Source: a virus
Lineage: Duplodnaviria > Heunggongvirae > Uroviricota > Caudoviricetes
IMG/VR virus record: IMGVR_UViG_648276671_000014
Reading direction: 5' to 3' (one strand)
DNA length: 24,740 nt
The notes under the pieces are model-generated. The model was not told the origin of the DNA. It saw only the letters and a program-made list of their open reading frames with translations, and did not search any database. Both the position numbers and the translations under genes were made by a program. Of this stretch, positions 1,452 to 10,537 are shown in pieces (positions within the stretch are counted from its first letter, which is position 1; every line of letters begins with the position of its first letter).

Positions 1452-2021
1452 CTATTTAACATACTTGACTGTTAAACTTATAATTTTACCAATTATTTCA
1501 ATGTCTTCTATCTTGCATTCGAAGGCTCTGTTTCCACCCTCGACGAAGATTCTTCCACCGGGTAAACGAGTAATGTCACGGATCGTTATTTCGCCATCAA
1601 TACTTATTACCCATTTACCATCACGTATATCATCAAATTCCTTATCACAAATAAATTCAAAATTATTATCTGTGATTACAAAAAGATTCTTGAATGCCGA
1701 CGGTAGAAATTCCCTATCGAAAATATAAAAACCGTCTTCACACAAGGCCCCATCAGATAATACATATTTAGCAACTTCCATAGTATTTGTATTACCTGAA
1801 GTTTGCTTTGAACCATGCCCGGTTGTGAGCCAATTAAGCGAGGTGCCCGTTTCAAGGGCGCACTGGATTACCCATTCTGCGGGGAATGAGTCACGCATGT
1901 AGCGTGTGGCGAGTGTACTTTTAGAGATTCCTAAATGATCGCACAACGCCTGTCGAGTCTTGAATCCATAAGCTTCTACCATGCGCTCTATAGCGCCTCG
2001 TCCGCCTTTCTCCAAATTCAT
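1452..2021 (-). CDS. cI: 186-type CI immunity repressor (189 aa). The ATG at 2021 is preferred over the GTG at 2027.
   Basis: The N-terminal HTH (EAYGFKTRQALCDHLGISKSTLATRYMR) resembles phage 186 CI. The length is ~190 aa. It lies divergent from apl/cII, with a promoter/operator region between them. GGAG sits 6 nt before the ATG at 2021. Confidence 0.8.
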   Translation of the reverse strand: MNLEKGGRGAIERMVEAYGFKTRQALCDHLGISKSTLATRYMRDSFPAEWVIQCALETGTSLNWLTTGHGSKQTSGNTNTMEVAKYVLSDGALCEDGFYIFDREFLPSAFKNLFVITDNNFEFICDKEFDDIRDGKWVISIDGEITIRDITRLPGGRIFVEGGNRAFECKIEDIEIIGKIISLTVKYVK

Positions 2022-2045
2022 GGTCACTCCAAGTGAACTTTTGTC

Positions 2046-4201: not shown

Positions 4202-5055
4202 GCACCATCCTGAAATGGGCGGGAAATAAAACCGCCATTATGTCCGAACTGAAAAAACACCTTCCTGCTGGCCCGCGACTGGTTGAACCTTTCGCGGGTT
4301 CCTGTGCTGTGATGATGGCGACGGATTACCCCAGCTATCTGGTTGCTGATATTAATCCTGATTTAATCAACCTCTATAAAAAGATTGCCGCTGATTGCGA
4401 AGCGTTTATATCTCGTGCCAGAGCTTTATTTGAGGAAGCAAACAGGGAGGTGGCTTATTACAACATAAGGCAGGAGTTTAACTGCTCAACTGAAATTACT
4501 GACTTCATGAAAGCAGTATATTTCCTGTATCTCAATCGTCACGGTTACCGTGGGTTATGTCGCTATAACAAGAGCGGGCATTTCAACATTCCCTACGGTA
4601 ATTATAAAAATCCGTATTTCCCTGAAAAAGAAATTCGCGCATTTGCAGAGAAAGCCCAGCGAGCAACGTTTATCTGCGCCAGCTTTGATGAAACGCTGGC
4701 GATGCTGCAGGTGGGGGATGTGGTGTATTGCGATCCGCCTTATGACGGTACGTTTTCCGGCTATCACACTGACGGCTTCACTGAAGATGACCAGTATCAC
4801 CTGGCATCTGTTCTTGAATATCGATCATCAGAAGGTCATCCAGTCATTGTTTCTAACAGTGACACATCCCTGATCCGTTCGCTGTATCGAAATTTCACTC
4901 ACCACTACATCAAGGCAAAACGCAGCATCGGCGTGTCGGCTGGCGAGAGTAAATCTGCAACAGAAATCATTGCTGTTTCCGGGGCGCGCTGCTGGGTGGG
5001 ATTTGATCCTTCGTGTGGCGTGGATAGTTCTGCTGTGTACGAGGTGCGTATATGA
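4198..5055 (+). CDS. dam: DNA adenine methyltransferase (Dam/D12-class N6A MTase, 285 aa from [11 protein letters not shown]).
   Basis: Motif I (KWAGNK...EPFAGS) and motif IV (DPPY) of Dam-family MTases. GGAGG SD. The stop codon overlaps the A start. Confidence 0.85.
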
Positions 5056-7466
5056 GTCATGACGATATGAGCAACTCTAGCGGCTTTAACGAGGCCGCTG
5101 CAGCATTTTCATGGAACGGCCCGAAAAAGGCCATTAACCCTTATCTGGACCCGGCGGAAGTTGCGCCGGAGTCTGCACTTTCAAACCTGATCACTCTGTA
5201 CGCTGCCGATAATGAGCAGGAACAGCTGCGCCGCGATGCACTGAGTGAGCAGGTCTGGGAGCGTTATTTCTTTAATGAATCTCGTGATCCTGTCCAGCGC
5301 GAAATGGAGCAGGATAAGCTCATTAGCCGGGCAAAGCTGGCGCATGAACAGCAGCGTTTTAACCCGGACATGGTCATTCTGGCGGACGTCAGCGCCCAGC
5401 CCACCCATATTAGCAAGCCGCTGATGCAACGTATCGAATACTTCAGCAGCCTGGGCAGGCCAAAGGCTTATTCCCGCTATTTGCGTGAGACGATTAAGCC
5501 ATGTCTGGAGCGACTGGATTGTGTACGTGACAGTCAGCTGTCTGCTTCTTTCCGTTTTATGGCAAGCCATCAAGGGCTGGAGGGCCTGCTGATCCTGCCT
5601 GAAATGAGTCAGGATCAGGTGAAACGCCTGTCCACCCTGGTAGCTGCGCATATGAGCATGTGCCTTGATGCAGCTTGTGGCGATTTGTATGCCACCGATG
5701 ACGTTAAGCCAGAAGAAATCCGCAAGACATGGGAAAAGGTGGCGGCGGAAACCCTGCGTCTGGATGTCATCCCACCTGCGTTTGAGCAACTCCGTCGGAA
5801 AAGAAACCGCCGTAAACCCGTGCCCTATGAACTCATTCCGGGTTCGCTGGCGCGTATGTTGTGCGCCGACTGGTGGTATCGGAAATTATGGAAGATGCGT
5901 TGCGAATGGCGGGAAGAGCAGTTGCGTGCTGTCTGCCTGGTCAGCAAAAAAGCATCTCCCTATGTCAGCTATGAAGCCGTGATGCATAAACGTGAGCAGC
6001 GCCGTAAGTCGCTGGAGTTTTTCCGTTCTCATGAACTGGTGAACGAAGACGGCGACACGCTGGACATGGAGGATGTGGTAAACGCCAGCAGCAGCAACCC
6101 TGCGCATCGCCGCAATGAGATGATGGCCTGTGTTAAAGGTCTGGAGCTTATCGCGGAAATGCGCGGTGACTGCGCCGTTTTCTACACTATCACCTGTCCG
6201 TCACGTTTCCATTCCACGCTCAACAACGGCAGACCCAACCCAACCTGGACAAATGCGACGGTAAGACAAAGCAGCGATTATCTGGTCGGCATGTTTGCTG
6301 CATTTCGTAAGGCAATGCACAAAACCGGGTTGCGCTGGTATGGCGTACGGGTGGCTGAGCCGCACCATGACGGTACTGTGCACTGGCATCTCATGTGCTT
6401 CATGCGTAAAAAAGACCGCCGCGCCATCACTGCATTACTGCGTAAGTTTGCCATCCGTGTAGACCGCGAGGAGCTGGGCAACAATACGGGGCCACGCTTT
6501 AAGTCTGAGCTGATTAACCCGCGCAAAGGAACACCGACAAGCTACATCGCGAAATACATCAGTAAGAACATTGACGGGCGTGGTCTGGCTGGCGAGATCA
6601 GCAAGGAAACGGGTAAATCCCTGCGTGATAACGCCGAATACGTCAATGCCTGGGCGTCTCTGCATCGTGTTCAGCAGTTCCGCTTCTTTGGTATTCCGGG
6701 ACGTCAGGCTTACCGTGAACTTCGCTTGCTGGCTGGTCAGGCGGCAAGGCAACAGGGTGACAAAAAAGCAGGTGCGCCGATACTGGATGACCCGCGCCTT
6801 GATGCCATCCTGGCTGCTGCTGATGCTGGTTGTTTTGCCACCTACATCATGAAGCAGGGCGGCGTACTGGTTCCCCGTAAATATCACCTTATCAGAACCG
6901 CTTATGAAATCAACGAAGAGCCGACCGCCTATGGCGATCACGGCATTCGTATTTATGGCATCTGGTCACCCATTGCAGAGGGCAAGATCTGCACTCATGC
7001 AGTGAAGTGGAAAATGGTTCGTAAGGCCGTTGACGTTCAGGAGGCGGTAGCCGACCAGGGCGCTTGCGCCCCTTGGACTCGTGGCAATAACTGTCCCCTT
7101 GCTGAAAATTTGAACCAACAAGGGAAAGACAAATCAGCTGATGGGGATACCAGGACGGACATTACCCGCATGGATGACAAGGAGTTGCACGATTACCTGC
7201 ACAGTATGAGCAAAAAAGAGCGCCGGGAACTGGCTGCAAGGTTACGCCTGGTGAAACCGAAACGGCGTAAAGACTACAAACAGCGAATTACAGACCATCA
7301 GCGACAGCGGCTCGTCTATGAACTGAAGTCCAGAGGATTTGATGGCAGCGAGAAAGAGGTCGATTTACTCCTTCGCGGCGGCAGTATTCCGTCAGGAGCA
7401 GGCCTGCGTATCTTCTATCGGAACCAGCGTTTGCAGGAAGATGATAAGTGGCGAAACCTGTATTAA
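5052..7466 (+). CDS. A: Replication initiation protein A (rolling-circle nicking endonuclease, 804 aa).
   Basis: Size and position match P2/186 gpA. The [11 protein letters not shown]-type motif and catalytic Tyr-containing region are present. Confidence 0.9.
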
Positions 7467-7558
7467 TTACGCGGGTTAACAATTCGTGCTCTTAATAATA
7501 CCAGGCATATCAGGCTGATGAACGTAAAAAAACGTTTTACATCAGTAAGATTATTATA

Positions 7559-7578
7559 TACTGTAAATATAAACAGTG
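7559..7578 (+). promoter_or_regulatory. LexA (SOS) box TACTGTAAATATAAACAGTG. It overlaps a candidate promoter (TTTACA 7536-7541, -10 around 7557-7564).
   Basis: Perfect CTGT-N8-ACAG with an AT-rich centre, read directly. Positioned like the LexA-controlled p95/tum promoter of phage 186. Confidence 0.65.
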
Positions 7579-7619
7579 GTTATACATACAGTATCGCTTG
7601 TGGTGTCATAGGAGGAAAG

Positions 7620-7808
7620 ATGCAGGACTATTTTTTGGAGTCTTTGAAGCTCCAGCGCATTGATTTTTTTCTTAAGCTTGTAGCGGCTAGTGAGTGTAGT
7701 GATGAAGAGAAGGGGCTGGCTTTGCAGTGGGTTTCTGAACTGACAGATGAACTCATGGCAAAAATCAGAACCCACGAATACAACCGCTCAATGGATGTCA
7801 TCAGCTGA
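7620..7808 (+). CDS. Small protein (62 aa) downstream of the LexA box. Possible N-terminal Tum-like antirepressor part.
   Basis: GGAGGA SD 5 nt before the ATG at 7620. First gene after the SOS box. Confidence 0.5.
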   Translation: MQDYFLESLKLQRIDFFLKLVAASECSDEEKGLALQWVSELTDELMAKIRTHEYNRSMDVIS

Positions 7809-7818
7809 GGTGACTTTT

Positions 7819-8052
7819 ATGCGCATTGAAATAATGATCGATAAAGAGCAGAAGATTAGCCAGTCTACCCTGGACGCCCTTGAATCCGAGCTTTACCGCA
7901 ATCTGCGCCCCCTATATCCAAAAACGGTAATTCGCATCCGCAAAGGTAGCTCTAACGGTGTGGAACTGACTGGACTGCAACTGGACGAAGAAAGGAAGCA
8001 AGTGATGAAAATTATGCAGAAGGTGTGGGAAGACGACAGCTGGCTGCATTAA
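7819..8052 (+). CDS. DinI-family protein (77 aa).
   Basis: Clear similarity to E. coli DinI recalled from memory (MRIE..DAL..EL...W..D.W). GAGGTG SD. Preferred over the 101-aa track ORF from 7747. Confidence 0.7.
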   Translation: MRIEIMIDKEQKISQSTLDALESELYRNLRPLYPKTVIRIRKGSSNGVELTGLQLDEERKQVMKIMQKVWEDDSWLH

Positions 8053-8322
8053 GAAACGTTGCTGGCGTCTGAACTTGCTTCTGGCGTCAGCAAGGTTGAA
8101 CAACGAGCTATGCGAGGCGTTAGTGTCAATTTGTTACCTTAACCACTATATATGCCAGGAAATTAACAGTTCTTAAGAAACCGCTTGCATGATCGAGCGC
8201 ATTGAACTTAAGTTTAAGTAACGAAATCAACAGATGATATTGTTGTCTAAATTTTAAAGATAATCTGTTGAGGTTGTAGGCGTCGGAGTGTAGACTTCCG
8301 CGCCATGTGAAAAGGGGGAGTT

Positions 8323-8538
8323 ATGTCAAGCATCGCCGCATTTAGCCTGGGTAACCCAGTTGAACGTCTGGCAAGGGTTCTTAAAGAGAACCAGGACAAA
8401 CTCAATCTTAGTAAAGATGGTTTTGTGTCCGTAGACTTGTCTAACAAAAGAGCAATGGATGCCATCAAGGCACAGATGGATAAGCTTGAAGGCATCAAAA
8501 CGAGCACTGTAAAAGAGAAAACTAATAGAACCAGATAA
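8323..8538 (+). CDS. Hypothetical small soluble protein (71 aa). First gene of a cargo operon.
   Basis: GGGGGAG SD 4 nt before the ATG. Its stop is coupled to the next start (TAATG). Confidence 0.55.
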   Translation: MSSIAAFSLGNPVERLARVLKENQDKLNLSKDGFVSVDLSNKRAMDAIKAQMDKLEGIKTSTVKEKTNRTR

Positions 8539-8738
8539 TGGCAACATTACTTTTAGCAGTGATTTTGGTTAGTGGTTTTATTTATGTAAACCTATCACTT
8601 TCAACAAGATACCGATATAAGCGTTCCAACGGCTGGGACGCTTATTTTTTGTGGCTGCCTGGGGTATCGTTTTTTTCTCCTTGGCGGTTTTTTCACCTTT
8701 ATTTTGAACGTCAGCGGAGGGTTTCGTTGGCTGGCTAA
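8538..8738 (+). CDS. Small membrane protein (66 aa, N-terminal TM helix). Possibly the N-terminal part of a larger frameshifted gene.
   Basis: Translational coupling (TAATG) with the upstream gene. Hydrophobic N-terminus LLLAVILVSGFIYV. Confidence 0.45.
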   Translation: MATLLLAVILVSGFIYVNLSLSTRYRYKRSNGWDAYFLWLPGVSFFSPWRFFHLYFERQRRVSLAG

Positions 8739-8772
8739 TGCCTTGAATCTAACACCTGACAGTTTTAATGGC

Positions 8773-9378
8773 ATGTTGTCTTCATCGAAAGACAAACTTC
8801 AAAGAATAAATGAAATCAAACAGATAGCATGGGTTATGATTTCAATTGTTCTCGCTGCGATTTCAGGTTTTGGAAATAAGTTACGCACATCACGTGGAGA
8901 TCGTCGCTGGGATGCCTTAGCTAAAGCTGTGGGTAATAACGCTTTCGAATCATTACTCATGGAAGCGTCCGCAAGACAGTTTCCGATCATAGCAACTCTG
9001 TCGTCTCGCAAAATCTATGTTGGTCTTGTTACTTGTCCGGCGTTAGAAAACGGGCTTTCAGAACACCTTGAACTTCTCCCGATGTTAAGCGGATATCGGG
9101 ATAAAGATGATCTAACGATTAGTATCACGACTAACTATCACCAACATTATCTTGATAGTGGTGTGATAAGTGGAATGTCTCGGCTTAATATCGAAGATTT
9201 CCGTGTGCTCATACCAAAAGATGAGGTTGAAACAATTTCGTTTTTTGATACTGAGACATATAACAAATTTAAAGAAAATGAAGCCAGGGATAGAAAGAAC
9301 TGTCGAAAGATTGGTAGTAAAAGTGCATCTTCGCGCAGCAAGCGTGCAGCAGATGCTGAGTCAAATGATCGTGCATGA
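8773..9378 (+). CDS. Hypothetical membrane-anchored protein (202 aa from the first ATG). The reading frame is open from 8590 with no SD, so it may be fused to the previous ORF by a +1 shift in T-runs.
   Basis: Long open frame with a TM segment (IAWVMISIVLAAISGF). Followed by a rho-independent terminator. AT-rich cargo. Confidence 0.45.
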   Translation: MLSSSKDKLQRINEIKQIAWVMISIVLAAISGFGNKLRTSRGDRRWDALAKAVGNNAFESLLMEASARQFPIIATLSSRKIYVGLVTCPALENGLSEHLELLPMLSGYRDKDDLTISITTNYHQHYLDSGVISGMSRLNIEDFRVLIPKDEVETISFFDTETYNKFKENEARDRKNCRKIGSKSASSRSKRAADAESNDRA

Positions 9379-9426
9379 CTATGCTGCATGAGATCGCATG
9401 ATCGTTTGAGGATCGTTTTTGCTAAG

Positions 9427-9451
9427 GCCCGCCAGAACTGGCGGGCTTTTG
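9427..9451 (+). terminator. Rho-independent terminator (GCCCGCC-AGAACT-GGCGGGC-TTTTG).
   Basis: Perfect 7-bp GC stem plus a T-run, read directly. Confidence 0.7.
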
Positions 9452-9496
9452 CGTAGATCATGCACCTGCATGAAAACTACTACATAAAGCGGGCAG

Positions 9497-9515
9497 GCGT
9501 GGCGGGGATACGAGT
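9497..9515. other. cos: cos-like site (GGCGTGGCGGGGATACGAG).
   Basis: Its first 13 nt match the 19-nt cohesive-end sequences of 186 and P2 (GGCGTGGCGGGGAAAGCAT and GGCGAGGCGGGGAAAGCAC, both recalled from memory). It sits between the A-side cargo and Q as in P2. Confidence 0.45.
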
Positions 9516-9697
9516 GCGCGTAATAACTAATATTCCTATTGACTTTCTATGATGCAATAGCTAATTTATTTCTAGGCCTATAGTTTAATTTGGGAAAACG
9601 GCGGAGTATGATTTAGGTTATATATCCGTCATACCGGTTCGATTCCGGTTAGGCAAAGAGCATTTTAGAGTGTTCTTTGCCTAACAGGATACGTAAA

Positions 9698-10447
9698 ATG
9701 ACTGATGACGAGATTAAAAATATTTTCCATGCTCAAACTGATAATGTTAGAGAGCTTGAGAAAGTCTGGAAACAAATAGTCAAAGAAATTAATACTGCAT
9801 TACGAACAGATAATGCAGTCCAAGTTGCACTTAAAACCAAAATGCTAGGTTTGGTTTTTTGCGCTCTTGCCGAAGCTCAATTTTCAAAGTTGATCCACAC
9901 GCCCGGTCAATTTTCCCCTAATGAAATAGAACAGATTAAATATGCAGCTTCATCTAATGTCTCAGATGGATGGTTAAAGTGCATAAATTTGGCTACGAGA
10001 CGACTATCGAAAGGCACAAAGCATAATCATGTTCCTAATGTTATTCAGGAGCTTGAAAGACTAGTTGATGATTTTATAAAAGCGCCAAGTTTAATTAGAA
10101 ATAAAATTGCGCATGGACAATGGGTTGTCGCTCTTAATAGAAAGAATACACATGTGAACTCAGAAATGACACATACTTTGCGTAATTTGACAATAGTGGA
10201 ATTAACAAAGTTTAAAGATGCTTTCACGAGAATGTCGCGAATAGTCGAAGATATTATTAAATCTCCTAATAAAGCTCATTTGCGTGATTATTGGCCGCAG
10301 CTTGAAGAGTTTAGAGCAAAGCAAAAGGAAATGGATAGTTGGACTCTTGCTGAAAAAGTCTTCCAATTAAAAAAGAAATATAATTACTCATCTAATATGA
10401 GATGTGAATCATGCGGTCAGTTACATGTTGATAGAAATAAACAATGA
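9698..10447 (+). CDS. HEPN-like protein with an RNKIAHG (Rx4HG) motif, 249 aa. Candidate abortive-infection or toxin RNase.
   Basis: AT-rich gene between cos and Q. ATG at 9698 (the track ORF starts at a TTG at 9677). The Rx4-6H motif followed by G is characteristic of HEPN nucleases. Confidence 0.55.
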   Translation: MTDDEIKNIFHAQTDNVRELEKVWKQIVKEINTALRTDNAVQVALKTKMLGLVFCALAEAQFSKLIHTPGQFSPNEIEQIKYAASSNVSDGWLKCINLATRRLSKGTKHNHVPNVIQELERLVDDFIKAPSLIRNKIAHGQWVVALNRKNTHVNSEMTHTLRNLTIVELTKFKDAFTRMSRIVEDIIKSPNKAHLRDYWPQLEEFRAKQKEMDSWTLAEKVFQLKKKYNYSSNMRCESCGQLHVDRNKQ

Positions 10448-10537
10448 TGATTATTATTTTGTGACACTTTCAATATTTTAATGCTTTATATATTAGCAAT
10501 GGTCATTAACATGACCATTGCTATGTGACCTAATATA

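What the first reader, a model, noticed from the sequence alone, without database searches (positions are those of the whole stretch)
7536..8052. SOS-box-controlled Tum/DinI-like module, possibly a split 186-type antirepressor
A perfect LexA box (CTGT-N8-ACAG, 7559-7578) overlaps a candidate promoter. The box is followed by a 62-aa ORF and, in a different frame, a clear DinI-family ORF (7819-8052). In phage 186 the LexA-repressed p95 promoter drives tum, whose product is an antirepressor with a DinI-like C-terminal half (~146 aa in total). Here the two parts (62 + 77 aa) are separate ORFs that overlap in alternate frames (7747-7808). Either this lineage naturally has a two-gene version, or tum is frameshifted. 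That matters for whether the prophage is SOS-inducible. With the 186-type cI/apl/cII this marks the element as 186-like rather than P2-like in its switch.
Basis: partly seen in the sequence, partly recalled or inferred. Interest (0 to 1): 0.5.

Follow-up and report, generated by a model that had tools for sequence, protein, structure and literature searches.

The report
SOS-controlled two-gene prophage induction switch
This is the DNA-damage switch of a common 186/Fels-2-type prophage, in which a LexA-repressed promoter drives a small antirepressor gene and a separate DinI-like gene; it is intact, ordinary and already described in the literature.

Summary
A LexA box (TACTGTAAATATAAACAGTG, 7559-7578) overlaps the -10 of a promoter laid out like p95 of phage 186. 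It is followed by a 62-aa ORF (7620-7808) and a 77-aa DinI-family ORF (7819-8052). Each ORF has its own ribosome-binding site, and a 10-nt gap separates them. The reported "overlap" (7747-7808) is only an upstream extension of the DinI reading frame.

Pairwise BLAST finds no similarity between the 62-aa protein and 186 Tum, but profile methods do. hhalign gives probability 96.7% (E 3.8e-10) and aligns residues 1-44 of each protein.

The gene is not a frameshifted tum:
- The same junction is present in 80 of 80 viral contigs.
- The module occurs in 1,125 of 5,426 complete E. coli genomes.
- No fused form appears among 1.8 billion representative proteins.
- PSP3 annotates the same split as tumA/tumB.

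The E. coli HS prophage DuoHS has a 99% identical CI and a 61/62 identical small protein. A published deletion of exactly that gene, and a lexA(Ind-) allele, both abolish mitomycin C induction.

Verdict: a known, natural two-gene Tum module, so the prophage is very probably SOS-inducible. The only gap is annotation, because databases call the antirepressor "hypothetical".

The parts
7536..7541 (+). -35 hexamer TTTACA of the SOS promoter, the counterpart of 186 p95
   Evidence: Read directly from the sequence. The geometry matches the annotated p95 of 186, which has -35 TTCACA, an 18-nt spacer and -10 TACTGT. The hexamer is invariant in 77 comparable viral contigs. The generic promoter scanner did not call it, because TACTGT matches TATAAT at only 3 of 6 positions.
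7559..7578 (.). LexA (SOS) box TACTGTAAATATAAACAGTG. Its first 6 nt double as the -10 hexamer.
   Evidence: It matches the consensus at 17 of 20 positions. It is the only match in the window, with 0 of 100 shuffles matching. A box sits at the same position in all homologous loci. The core is perfect in 75 of 80 viral contigs.
7620..7808 (+). tumA-type antirepressor gene (62 aa), preceded by SD AGGAGG at 7610-7615
   Evidence: It hits phrog_698 at 3.6e-38. The N-terminus of 186 Tum hits the same phrog at 6.7e-6, and both proteins hit phrog_8554. A family HMM scores 186 Tum at 35.8 bits. hhalign gives 96.7%, E 3.8e-10. It is 61/62 identical to ECHS_RS04495, the gene deleted as 'tum' in DuoHS. 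The AlphaFold model is a two-helix hairpin with pLDDT 85.8.
7819..8052 (+). tumB, a DinI-like gene (77 aa), preceded by SD GAGGTG at 7807-7812
   Evidence: Pfam PF06183 hit at E 6.6e-23. It is 41% identical to 186 Tum residues 71-145. It matches E. coli DinI, PDB 1GHH, at E 2.7e-6. It starts exactly where the internal GTG-initiated short Tum product of 186 starts. The ORF is intact in 78 of 80 viral contigs.
8055..8097 (+). Conserved hairpin directly after the tumB stop codon, at the position of terminator t95a in 186. It has no U-tract. It probably marks the 3' end of the operon and the boundary of the cargo region.
   Evidence: The MFE is -26.4 kcal/mol, but the z-score is only -1.9. In an alignment of 11 variants, 9 of 13 pairs show compensatory double changes. 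The flanks ACGTTGC and GGTTGAACAACGAG are conserved, and the sequence diverges after them.
1452..2024 (-). cI immunity repressor, the presumed target of the 62-aa antirepressor
   Evidence: PHROG transcriptional repressor hit. It is 33% identical to 186 CI and 188/189 identical to DuoHS CI. That it is the target is inferred from 186 Tum biochemistry (papers cited).

Best explanation
This is the SOS operon of a Fels-2/DuoHS-type member of the P2/186 phage family. It is the natural two-gene (tumA/tumB) form of the 186 tum locus.

In the lysogen, LexA sits on the box that overlaps the -10 hexamer and keeps the promoter shut. DNA damage leads to RecA-stimulated LexA cleavage, and the promoter then fires. 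The 62-aa helical-hairpin protein (TumA) is made and inactivates the CI repressor by binding it. This releases the lytic promoter and induces the prophage. The co-transcribed 77-aa DinI-like protein (TumB) is a separate polypeptide. It probably acts on RecA filaments to tune the SOS signal and is not needed for antirepression itself.

Status of each step:
- Shown here: the anatomy, homology of both products to the two halves of 186 Tum, conservation of the box, and conservation of the split layout.
- Shown in the literature for near-identical or related phages: the small gene and cleavable LexA are both required for mitomycin C induction (DuoHS); the upstream gene of PSP3 is reported to carry the antirepressor activity (personal communication).
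- Inferred: LexA binds this particular box, TumA binds this particular CI, and TumB acts on RecA.
For: - Anatomy and promoter layout match 186 p95.
- The LexA box is unique in the window and conserved across diverged loci.
- TumA is homologous to residues 1-44 of 186 Tum.
- TumB is DinI-family and 41% identical to the C-terminal half of 186 Tum.
- 186 itself makes a separate DinI-like product from an internal GTG at the equivalent position.
- PSP3 annotates tumA and tumB separately. Fels-2 has the same pair, with the small protein 98% identical.
- Lemire et al. 2011 (PMC3121763) state that Fels-2 and PSP3 have tum split in two and that the PSP3 upstream gene is the antirepressor.
- The DuoHS prophage of E. 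coli HS has CI 188/189 identical, TumA 61/62 identical and an identical LexA box with a near-identical promoter region. Deleting ECHS_RS04495, the 62-aa gene, or using lexA(Ind-), abolishes MMC-induced lysis (PMC12055606).
- The split layout is universal in this subfamily.
- Distant relatives carry the LexA box and tumA without any DinI gene.
Against: - There is no direct evidence for this exact sequence. LexA binding, promoter activity and TumA-CI binding are all inferred.
- The -10 hexamer is poor (TACTGT), and the generic promoter scan did not call a promoter.
- I saw no complementation of the DuoHS deletion in the text I read, so a polar effect on the DinI-like gene is not formally excluded.
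- An identical TumA is found with CI proteins that are only 38-56% identical overall. That is unexpected for a highly specific protein-protein inhibitor, although the N-terminal domain of those CI proteins stays 70-79% identical.
Confidence: 0.9

Rival explanations
1. The locus is a 186-type fused tum gene inactivated by a frameshift or stop codon. The prophage would then have lost SOS inducibility.
For: 186 Tum is a single 146-aa polypeptide. The two ORFs here are in different frames, and the DinI frame stays open for 25 codons upstream of its ATG.
Against: - The same TGA-SD-ATG junction occurs in 80 of 80 viral contigs, and the DinI ORF is intact in 78 of 80.
- The module is present in 1,125 of 5,426 complete E. 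coli genomes.
- None of the 66 representatives found in a 1.8-billion-protein library is a fusion.
- Each gene has its own SD.
- The tail of TumA (residues 46-62) shows no similarity to the 186 linker.
- Fels-2 and DuoHS, which have the same layout, are inducible.
Confidence: 0.02
2. A fused Tum-like protein is still made, by programmed frameshifting or stop-codon read-through across the tumA/tumB junction.
For: The DinI frame is open through the last 62 nt of tumA. In PSP3 the two genes are in the same frame and are separated by a single TAG.
Against: The frame offset between the two genes is not conserved. It is +1 in the window, Fels-2 and DuoHS, +2 in the relatives that are 52% identical, and 0 in PSP3. 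There is no canonical slippery heptamer. A dedicated SD precedes tumB. Distant relatives lack tumB altogether.
Confidence: 0.03
3. The 62-aa protein is not the CI antirepressor. The DinI-like protein, or another SOS function, triggers induction, and the small ORF has some other role.
For: The 62-aa family has no Pfam, NCBIfam or PDB match. PHROGs lists it as unknown function. Its sequence does not co-diverge with whole-length CI.
Against: It is homologous to the N-terminal half of 186 Tum, the half outside the DinI-like domain. In-frame deletion of the 61/62-identical gene in DuoHS blocks induction while the SOS response stays normal. The PSP3 upstream gene is reported as the antirepressor. 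Relatives keep the LexA box and tumA without a DinI gene.
Confidence: 0.05

Closest known systems
tum (ECHS_RS04495) plus the DinI-like gene ECHS_RS04500 of the P2-like prophage DuoHS in E. coli HS (Nat Microbiol 2025, PMC12055606)
   Same: It is essentially the same element. TumA is 61/62 identical and CI 188/189 identical, with an identical LexA box, a near-identical promoter region and the same junction. The gene is experimentally required for MMC induction, and induction depends on LexA cleavage.
   Different: The cargo downstream of the DinI stop codon is unrelated, and homology ends at the stop. There is one conservative T51S difference in TumA.
Fels-2 STM2728 / STM2726.1 (Salmonella LT2) and PSP3 tumA / tumB
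   Same: Both have the two-gene layout after replication gene A, behind a LexA box. The Fels-2 small protein is 98% identical. PSP3 explicitly annotates tumA ('similar to 5' end 186 tum; UV induction') and tumB. The split is described in Lemire 2011, citing Bunny 2002.
   Different: PSP3 TumA belongs to another subfamily (phrog_1993). It has no BLASTP similarity to the window protein and only a weak profile hit. The PSP3 genes are in the same frame, 3 nt apart.
Tum of coliphage 186 (146 aa; LexA-repressed p95; Shearwin, Brumby and Egan 1998)
   Same: The genomic position, promoter and LexA box architecture are the same. The N-terminal ~45 residues are homologous to TumA, and the C-terminal DinI-like half is 41% identical to TumB. 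186 also makes a stand-alone DinI-like product from an internal start.
   Different: In 186 the two modules are fused in one polypeptide, and here they are separate genes. TumA and the Tum N-terminus are too diverged for BLASTP. The CI proteins are only 33% identical. 186 has orf97 and canonical terminators downstream, whereas the window has a U-less hairpin and different cargo.
dinI-antirepressor operons of the Gifsy prophages (GfoA/GftA; Lemire et al. 2011)
   Same: They are LexA-controlled operons that pair a DinI homologue with a small antirepressor that binds the repressor rather than causing its cleavage.
   Different: The gene order is reversed, with dinI first. The phages are lambdoid, and I tested no sequence relationship between their antirepressors and TumA.

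Membership tests
Tum-type LexA-controlled antirepressor of 186-like phages (N-terminal/TumA module) | Sequence homology to the non-DinI (N-terminal) part of 186 Tum | tested here: met
   BLASTP finds nothing. The profile tests agree: 186 Tum N-terminus against phrog_698 gives 6.7e-6, and both proteins hit phrog_8554; the family HMM scores 186 Tum at 35.8 bits; hhalign gives 96.7%, E 3.8e-10, aligning residues 1-44 with 1-44.
Tum-type LexA-controlled antirepressor of 186-like phages (N-terminal/TumA module) | Transcribed from a promoter overlapped by a LexA box | tested here: met
   At the sequence level only. The box at 7559-7578 overlaps the -10 as in p95 and is conserved in all relatives. 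LexA binding itself is not testable with these tools.
Tum-type LexA-controlled antirepressor of 186-like phages (N-terminal/TumA module) | Located just downstream of replication gene A in a prophage with a cI/apl/cII switch | tested here: met
   The gpA-like gene is at 5052-7466. cI, the cox/apl-like gene and cII lie at 1452-2910.
Tum-type LexA-controlled antirepressor of 186-like phages (N-terminal/TumA module) | Required for SOS induction; binds CI and blocks its DNA binding | not testable with these tools
   The requirement is shown for the 61/62-identical DuoHS gene. CI binding is shown only for 186 Tum, according to papers cited.
186 Tum proper (single 146-aa fusion protein) | Antirepressor and DinI-like modules are joined in one polypeptide | tested here: not met
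   There is a stop codon, a 10-nt gap with an SD, and a +1 frame offset. No fused representative exists in this subfamily. It works like 186 Tum but is the tumA/tumB form.
DinI-like family (Pfam PF06183) | Match to the family model above its curated threshold | tested here: met
   81.3 bits against a cutoff of 24.2. It hits phrog_189 'RecA filament binding protein DinI' at 1.5e-29 and PDB 1GHH at E 2.7e-6.
Host DinI (NCBIfam NF007893 equivalog) | Score above the equivalog cutoff | tested here: not met
   42.7 bits against a cutoff of 111. It is a phage DinI-like paralogue, not the chromosomal dinI orthologue.
DinI-like family (Pfam PF06183) | Binds RecA filaments and modulates SOS | not testable with these tools
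   This is inferred from the family and from the record note on the short Tum products of 186, 'modulates SOS induction'.

The most novel reading that the evidence does not exclude
One nearly invariant TumA allele may serve a whole set of CI repressors that differ strongly outside their N-terminal DNA-binding domain. Among CI proteins paired with an identical TumA, the N-terminal domain is 70-79% identical and the rest is 24-41% identical. If TumA recognises that conserved N-terminal domain, a single SOS-induced antirepressor could cross-induce co-resident relatives whose CI proteins differ in the C-terminal domain. This would be the Peduoviridae counterpart of the Gifsy 'crosstalk'. It would also tolerate frequent recombination that swaps CI C-terminal domains.
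Probability: 0.3. Interest if true: 0.4.

Novelty: already known. Interest (0 to 1): 0.12.

Why it matters
The main value is practical.

- **Inducibility.** The prophage in this window should be regarded as SOS-inducible, for example by mitomycin C or fluoroquinolones, and not as crippled. Its induction module is intact and nearly identical to that of the experimentally inducible DuoHS prophage.
- **Annotation.** The 62-aa antirepressor has no Pfam or NCBIfam model. PHROGs lists it as 'unknown function', and RefSeq calls it 'hypothetical protein'. Some GenBank records call it 'levan regulatory domain protein'. In the 186 and PSP3 RefSeq records seen here, the tum and tumB products are named only 'RecA filament binding protein DinI'. 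About one in five complete E. coli genomes carries this module, so a family model named for TumA would correct thousands of annotations.

There is no new biology in the finding as given.

Tried and rejected
**Searches that found nothing**
- BLASTP of the 62-aa protein against 186 Tum and against PSP3 TumA gave no alignment. Only profile methods show the relationship.
- Pfam, NCBIfam and PDB sequence searches of the 62-aa protein or its family found nothing.
- A Foldseek search of the predicted two-helix hairpin against BFVD gave no match with E below 0.4, so the fold is uninformative.
- PADLOC found no defence-system hits for the cargo ORFs downstream.

**Tools or sources that were not usable**
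- The generic sigma-70 scanner called no promoter, because the -10 is TACTGT. I relied on the layout shared with the annotated p95 instead.
With the single protein it returned only 100%-identical copies. I reached diverged loci through the look-up of encoding contigs.
- Bunny et al. 2002, the original description of the Fels-2 split tum, is not held. I used the account of it in Lemire 2011.
- A literature search for 'TumA/TumB/PSP3' returned only irrelevant papers.

**Hypotheses rejected**
- Programmed frameshifting or read-through is rejected because the frame offset varies between lineages.
- A pseudogene origin is rejected.
- The small hairpin with a T-run at 7797-7814, flagged by the terminator scan, is no more than chance predicts (1 found, 0.8 expected) and is not conserved in diverged relatives.

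Full report
**1. What is in the sequence**

The window is a P2/186-family prophage. It runs through the integrase, cI (1452-2024, minus strand), a cox/apl-like gene, cII, a Dam methylase and the 804-aa gpA-type replicase (5052-7466). Further on it has the portal, terminase and capsid genes. The finding lies in the 153-nt gap after gene A.

Direct reading gives the following features:
- -35 TTTACA at 7536-7541, a 17-nt spacer, and -10 TACTGT at 7559-7564.
- LexA box TACTGTAAATATAAACAGTG at 7559-7578.
- SD AGGAGG at 7610-7615, followed by a 62-aa ORF from ATG 7620 to TGA 7806-7808.
- SD GAGGTG at 7807-7812, followed by a 77-aa ORF at 7819-8052.

The 77-aa product is a clear DinI-family protein, with Pfam PF06183 at E 6.6e-23. 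It also matches PDB 1GHH at E 2.7e-6. It scores below the equivalog cutoff for chromosomal DinI, so it is a phage paralogue.

**2. Is the LexA box more than chance?**

The bare CTGT-N8-ACAG core is not strong evidence in 24.7 kb. It gives 1 hit against 0.26 expected, and 24% of shuffles have at least one hit. The full 20-mer is a different matter. It matches the consensus at 17 of 20 positions. It is the only such site in the window, and none of 100 shuffles produced one.

Conservation is more telling. A TACTG-N10-CAGT box lies 38-61 nt upstream of the homologous small ORF in 186, PSP3, Fels-2, Cronobacter phage ESSI-2 and four metagenomic or genomic relatives. In those relatives the surrounding intergenic DNA cannot be aligned. 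Among 77 comparable viral contigs the -35, spacer and box columns are nearly invariant, while the untranslated leader at 7580-7600 is highly variable.

The layout is that of the annotated, experimentally defined p95 promoter of 186, where the box starts at the -10 hexamer TACTGT and the spacer is 17-18 nt. The generic promoter scanner missed it because TACTGT is a poor -10.

**3. What the 62-aa ORF is**

BLASTP finds no similarity to 186 Tum or to PSP3 TumA. Pfam, NCBIfam and PDB hold nothing for it. Profile methods, however, agree with one another:
- The protein defines phrog_698 (3.6e-38) and also hits phrog_8554 (2.4e-8).
- The first 70 residues of 186 Tum hit phrog_8554 (3.3e-12) and phrog_698 (6.7e-6) over the same columns.
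- An HMM built from 31 diverse family members scores 186 Tum at 35.8 bits over residues 6-48.
- hhalign of that family against an independent alignment of 186-type N-terminal sequences gives 96.7% probability, E 3.8e-10, and aligns residues 1-44 with residues 1-44.

The shared signature is E-x5-R-[IV]-[DE]-x2-x-[KR]-L-x5-C-x6-[LI]-A-[LI]-x-[WL]-[IV]-x-E-[LI]. AlphaFold predicts a two-helix hairpin (helices 2-23 and 28-61, pLDDT 85.8), with the near-invariant Cys26 in the turn. The fold search was uninformative. So the 62-aa protein is a diverged homologue of the non-DinI half of Tum.

**4. Split gene or broken gene?**

Everything points to a natural two-gene arrangement:
- The TGA-GAGGTG-ATG junction is present in 80 of 80 IMG/VR loci, and the 77-aa ORF is intact in 78 of them.
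- The module is found in 1,125 of 5,426 complete E. coli genomes.
- A full HMMER scan of 1.84 billion representative proteins found 66 family members. All are short, and none is fused to DinI.
- A relative only 52% identical has the same pair of genes 11 nt apart.
- More distant relatives, and ESSI-2, keep the LexA box and the small gene but have no DinI gene at all.
- Many members of the 186-type N-terminal family are also stand-alone proteins of about 63 aa that submitters annotated as 'Tum protein'.
- 186 itself makes a separate DinI-like product from an internal GTG, exactly where tumB starts here.

The relative reading frame of the two genes is +1 here, +2 in the 52% relatives and 0 in PSP3. 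This argues against a conserved programmed frameshift.

**5. What is already known**

PSP3 is annotated with tumA ('similar to 5' end 186 tum; UV induction of prophage') and tumB. Lemire et al. [quoted passage not shown] Fels-2 carries a 98%-identical copy of the small protein and the same promoter.

The most direct evidence comes from the P2-like prophage DuoHS of E. coli HS. Its CI is 188/189 identical to the window's, its small protein is 61/62 identical, and it has an identical LexA box with a near-identical promoter region. In the Phollow study (PMC12055606), 'tum' was deleted in frame at locus tag ECHS_RS04495. The RefSeq record shows that this is the 189-nt gene directly upstream of the DinI-like gene. 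The deletion mutant and a lexA(Ind-) strain both failed to lyse or form virions after mitomycin C. The deletion mutant still mounted a normal SOS response.

For 186, Tum is described as an anti-CI factor that is expressed on LexA derepression of p95 and sequesters CI.

**6. Mechanism**

The best-supported sequence of events is:
1. LexA represses the promoter.
2. DNA damage removes LexA.
3. TumA (62 aa) is made and neutralises CI, and the prophage enters lytic growth.
4. TumB (DinI-like) is co-expressed and modulates RecA and the SOS signal.

The anatomy, homology and conservation are shown here. The requirement for the small gene and for cleavable LexA is shown in the literature for a near-identical prophage. 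LexA binding to this box, TumA-CI contact and the role of TumB are inferred. I put confidence in this explanation at about 0.9. The rivals are listed with their evidence: pseudogene 0.02, frameshift fusion 0.03, small ORF not the antirepressor 0.05.

**7. Side observations**

- **TumA and CI.** Phages with a 100%-identical TumA have CI proteins only 38-56% identical to the window's. An alignment shows that the N-terminal helix-turn-helix domain stays 70-79% identical while the rest is 24-41% identical. Across the phage collection, the presence and type of TumA track the class of the CI N-terminal domain. That domain is 60-79% identical where a TumA relative is found, except ESSI2_ev015 at 46.7%, and at most 51% identical in PSP3, 186 and others. 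This fits TumA recognising the N-terminal domain, but shared ancestry could explain it equally well.
- **Hairpin after tumB.** A hairpin at 8055-8097 directly follows the tumB stop. Nine of its 13 pairs show compensatory changes, its flanks are conserved, and homology to DuoHS and Fels-2 ends exactly at the tumB stop. It occupies the position of terminator t95a in 186 but has no U-tract.

**8. Verdict**

The frameshift alternative is rejected. The element is a common, intact and already characterised induction module, so novelty is 'already known' and interest is low. Its practical value is for annotation and for predicting that this prophage is SOS-inducible.

Noticed in passing
window 8055-8097 (flanks 8053-8125): A conserved hairpin lies 6 nt after the DinI stop. 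Across related viral contigs the stem sequence changes with compensatory substitutions in 9 of 13 pairs, while the flanks ACGTTGC and GGTTGAACAACGAG-N5-6-CGAGGCGTTAG stay constant. There is no U-tract, and Rfam has no match at gathering thresholds. Homology to DuoHS and Fels-2 stops exactly at the DinI stop codon. The hairpin may therefore mark the boundary of the exchangeable cargo region, or act as a non-canonical 3' end or stabiliser of the SOS transcript.
   Followed up: partly
window 1452-2024 (cI) compared with L091-L095: Phages that encode a 100%-identical 62-aa TumA carry CI repressors only 38-56% identical overall. The CI N-terminal HTH domain is 70-79% identical and the remainder 24-41% identical. 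Across the phage collection, TumA type tracks the class of the CI N-terminal domain. This suggests, but does not prove, that TumA contacts the N-terminal domain and could act across CI variants.
   Followed up: partly
window 8120-10450: The cargo region between tumB and the portal gene differs completely from that of DuoHS and Fels-2. It holds ORFs at 8323-8538 (71 aa, phrog_9843), 8704-9378 (224 aa, phrog_3630) and 9677-10447 (256 aa, phrog_12663). All are of unknown function, with no PADLOC, Pfam or credible NCBIfam hit. In relatives the same slot carries defence-like genes, for example GAPS4 domains in L087.
   Followed up: partly
window 9576-9654 (+): A borderline Rfam tRNA match lies inside the cargo region, at 30.7 bits against a gathering score of 29 (E 0.0078). 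ARAGORN finds no tRNA anywhere in the window. It is probably a tRNA-like fragment or a false positive.
   Followed up: partly
proteins P0267, P0272, P0275, P0284, P0289, P0292, P0297, P0301 (distant relatives of window 7620-7808): Many distant members of the TumA family end in a conserved glycine-rich tail, roughly K-[NS]-P-[QR]-x-G-G-x2-S-G-G-G-x2-[LF]-Q. The window protein lacks it. Its significance is unknown.
   Followed up: no
L092 (Klebsiella phage Kp4860-7 cI region); also other records with 2 places: The longest ORF over the cI match is 280 aa and contains two consecutive copies of the CI N-terminal HTH domain. Several Klebsiella and Salmonella phage records likewise show two matches to the CI N-terminal domain. 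This could be a duplicated N-terminal domain or a second small HTH gene next to cI.
   Followed up: no
window 7797-7814: A small hairpin, GTCATC-AGCTGA-GGTGAC followed by TTTTAT, spans the tumA stop codon and the tumB ribosome-binding site. It could couple or limit tumB translation. It is no more than the scan expects by chance (1 found, 0.8 expected) and is absent from diverged relatives.
   Followed up: partly
window 7620-7808 and database records: There is an annotation gap. The functional antirepressor is 'hypothetical protein' in RefSeq, 'unknown function' in PHROGs, and 'levan regulatory domain protein' in some GenBank records. In the 186 and PSP3 RefSeq records the tum and tumB products are named only 'RecA filament binding protein DinI'. 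No Pfam or NCBIfam model exists for the family.
   Followed up: yes
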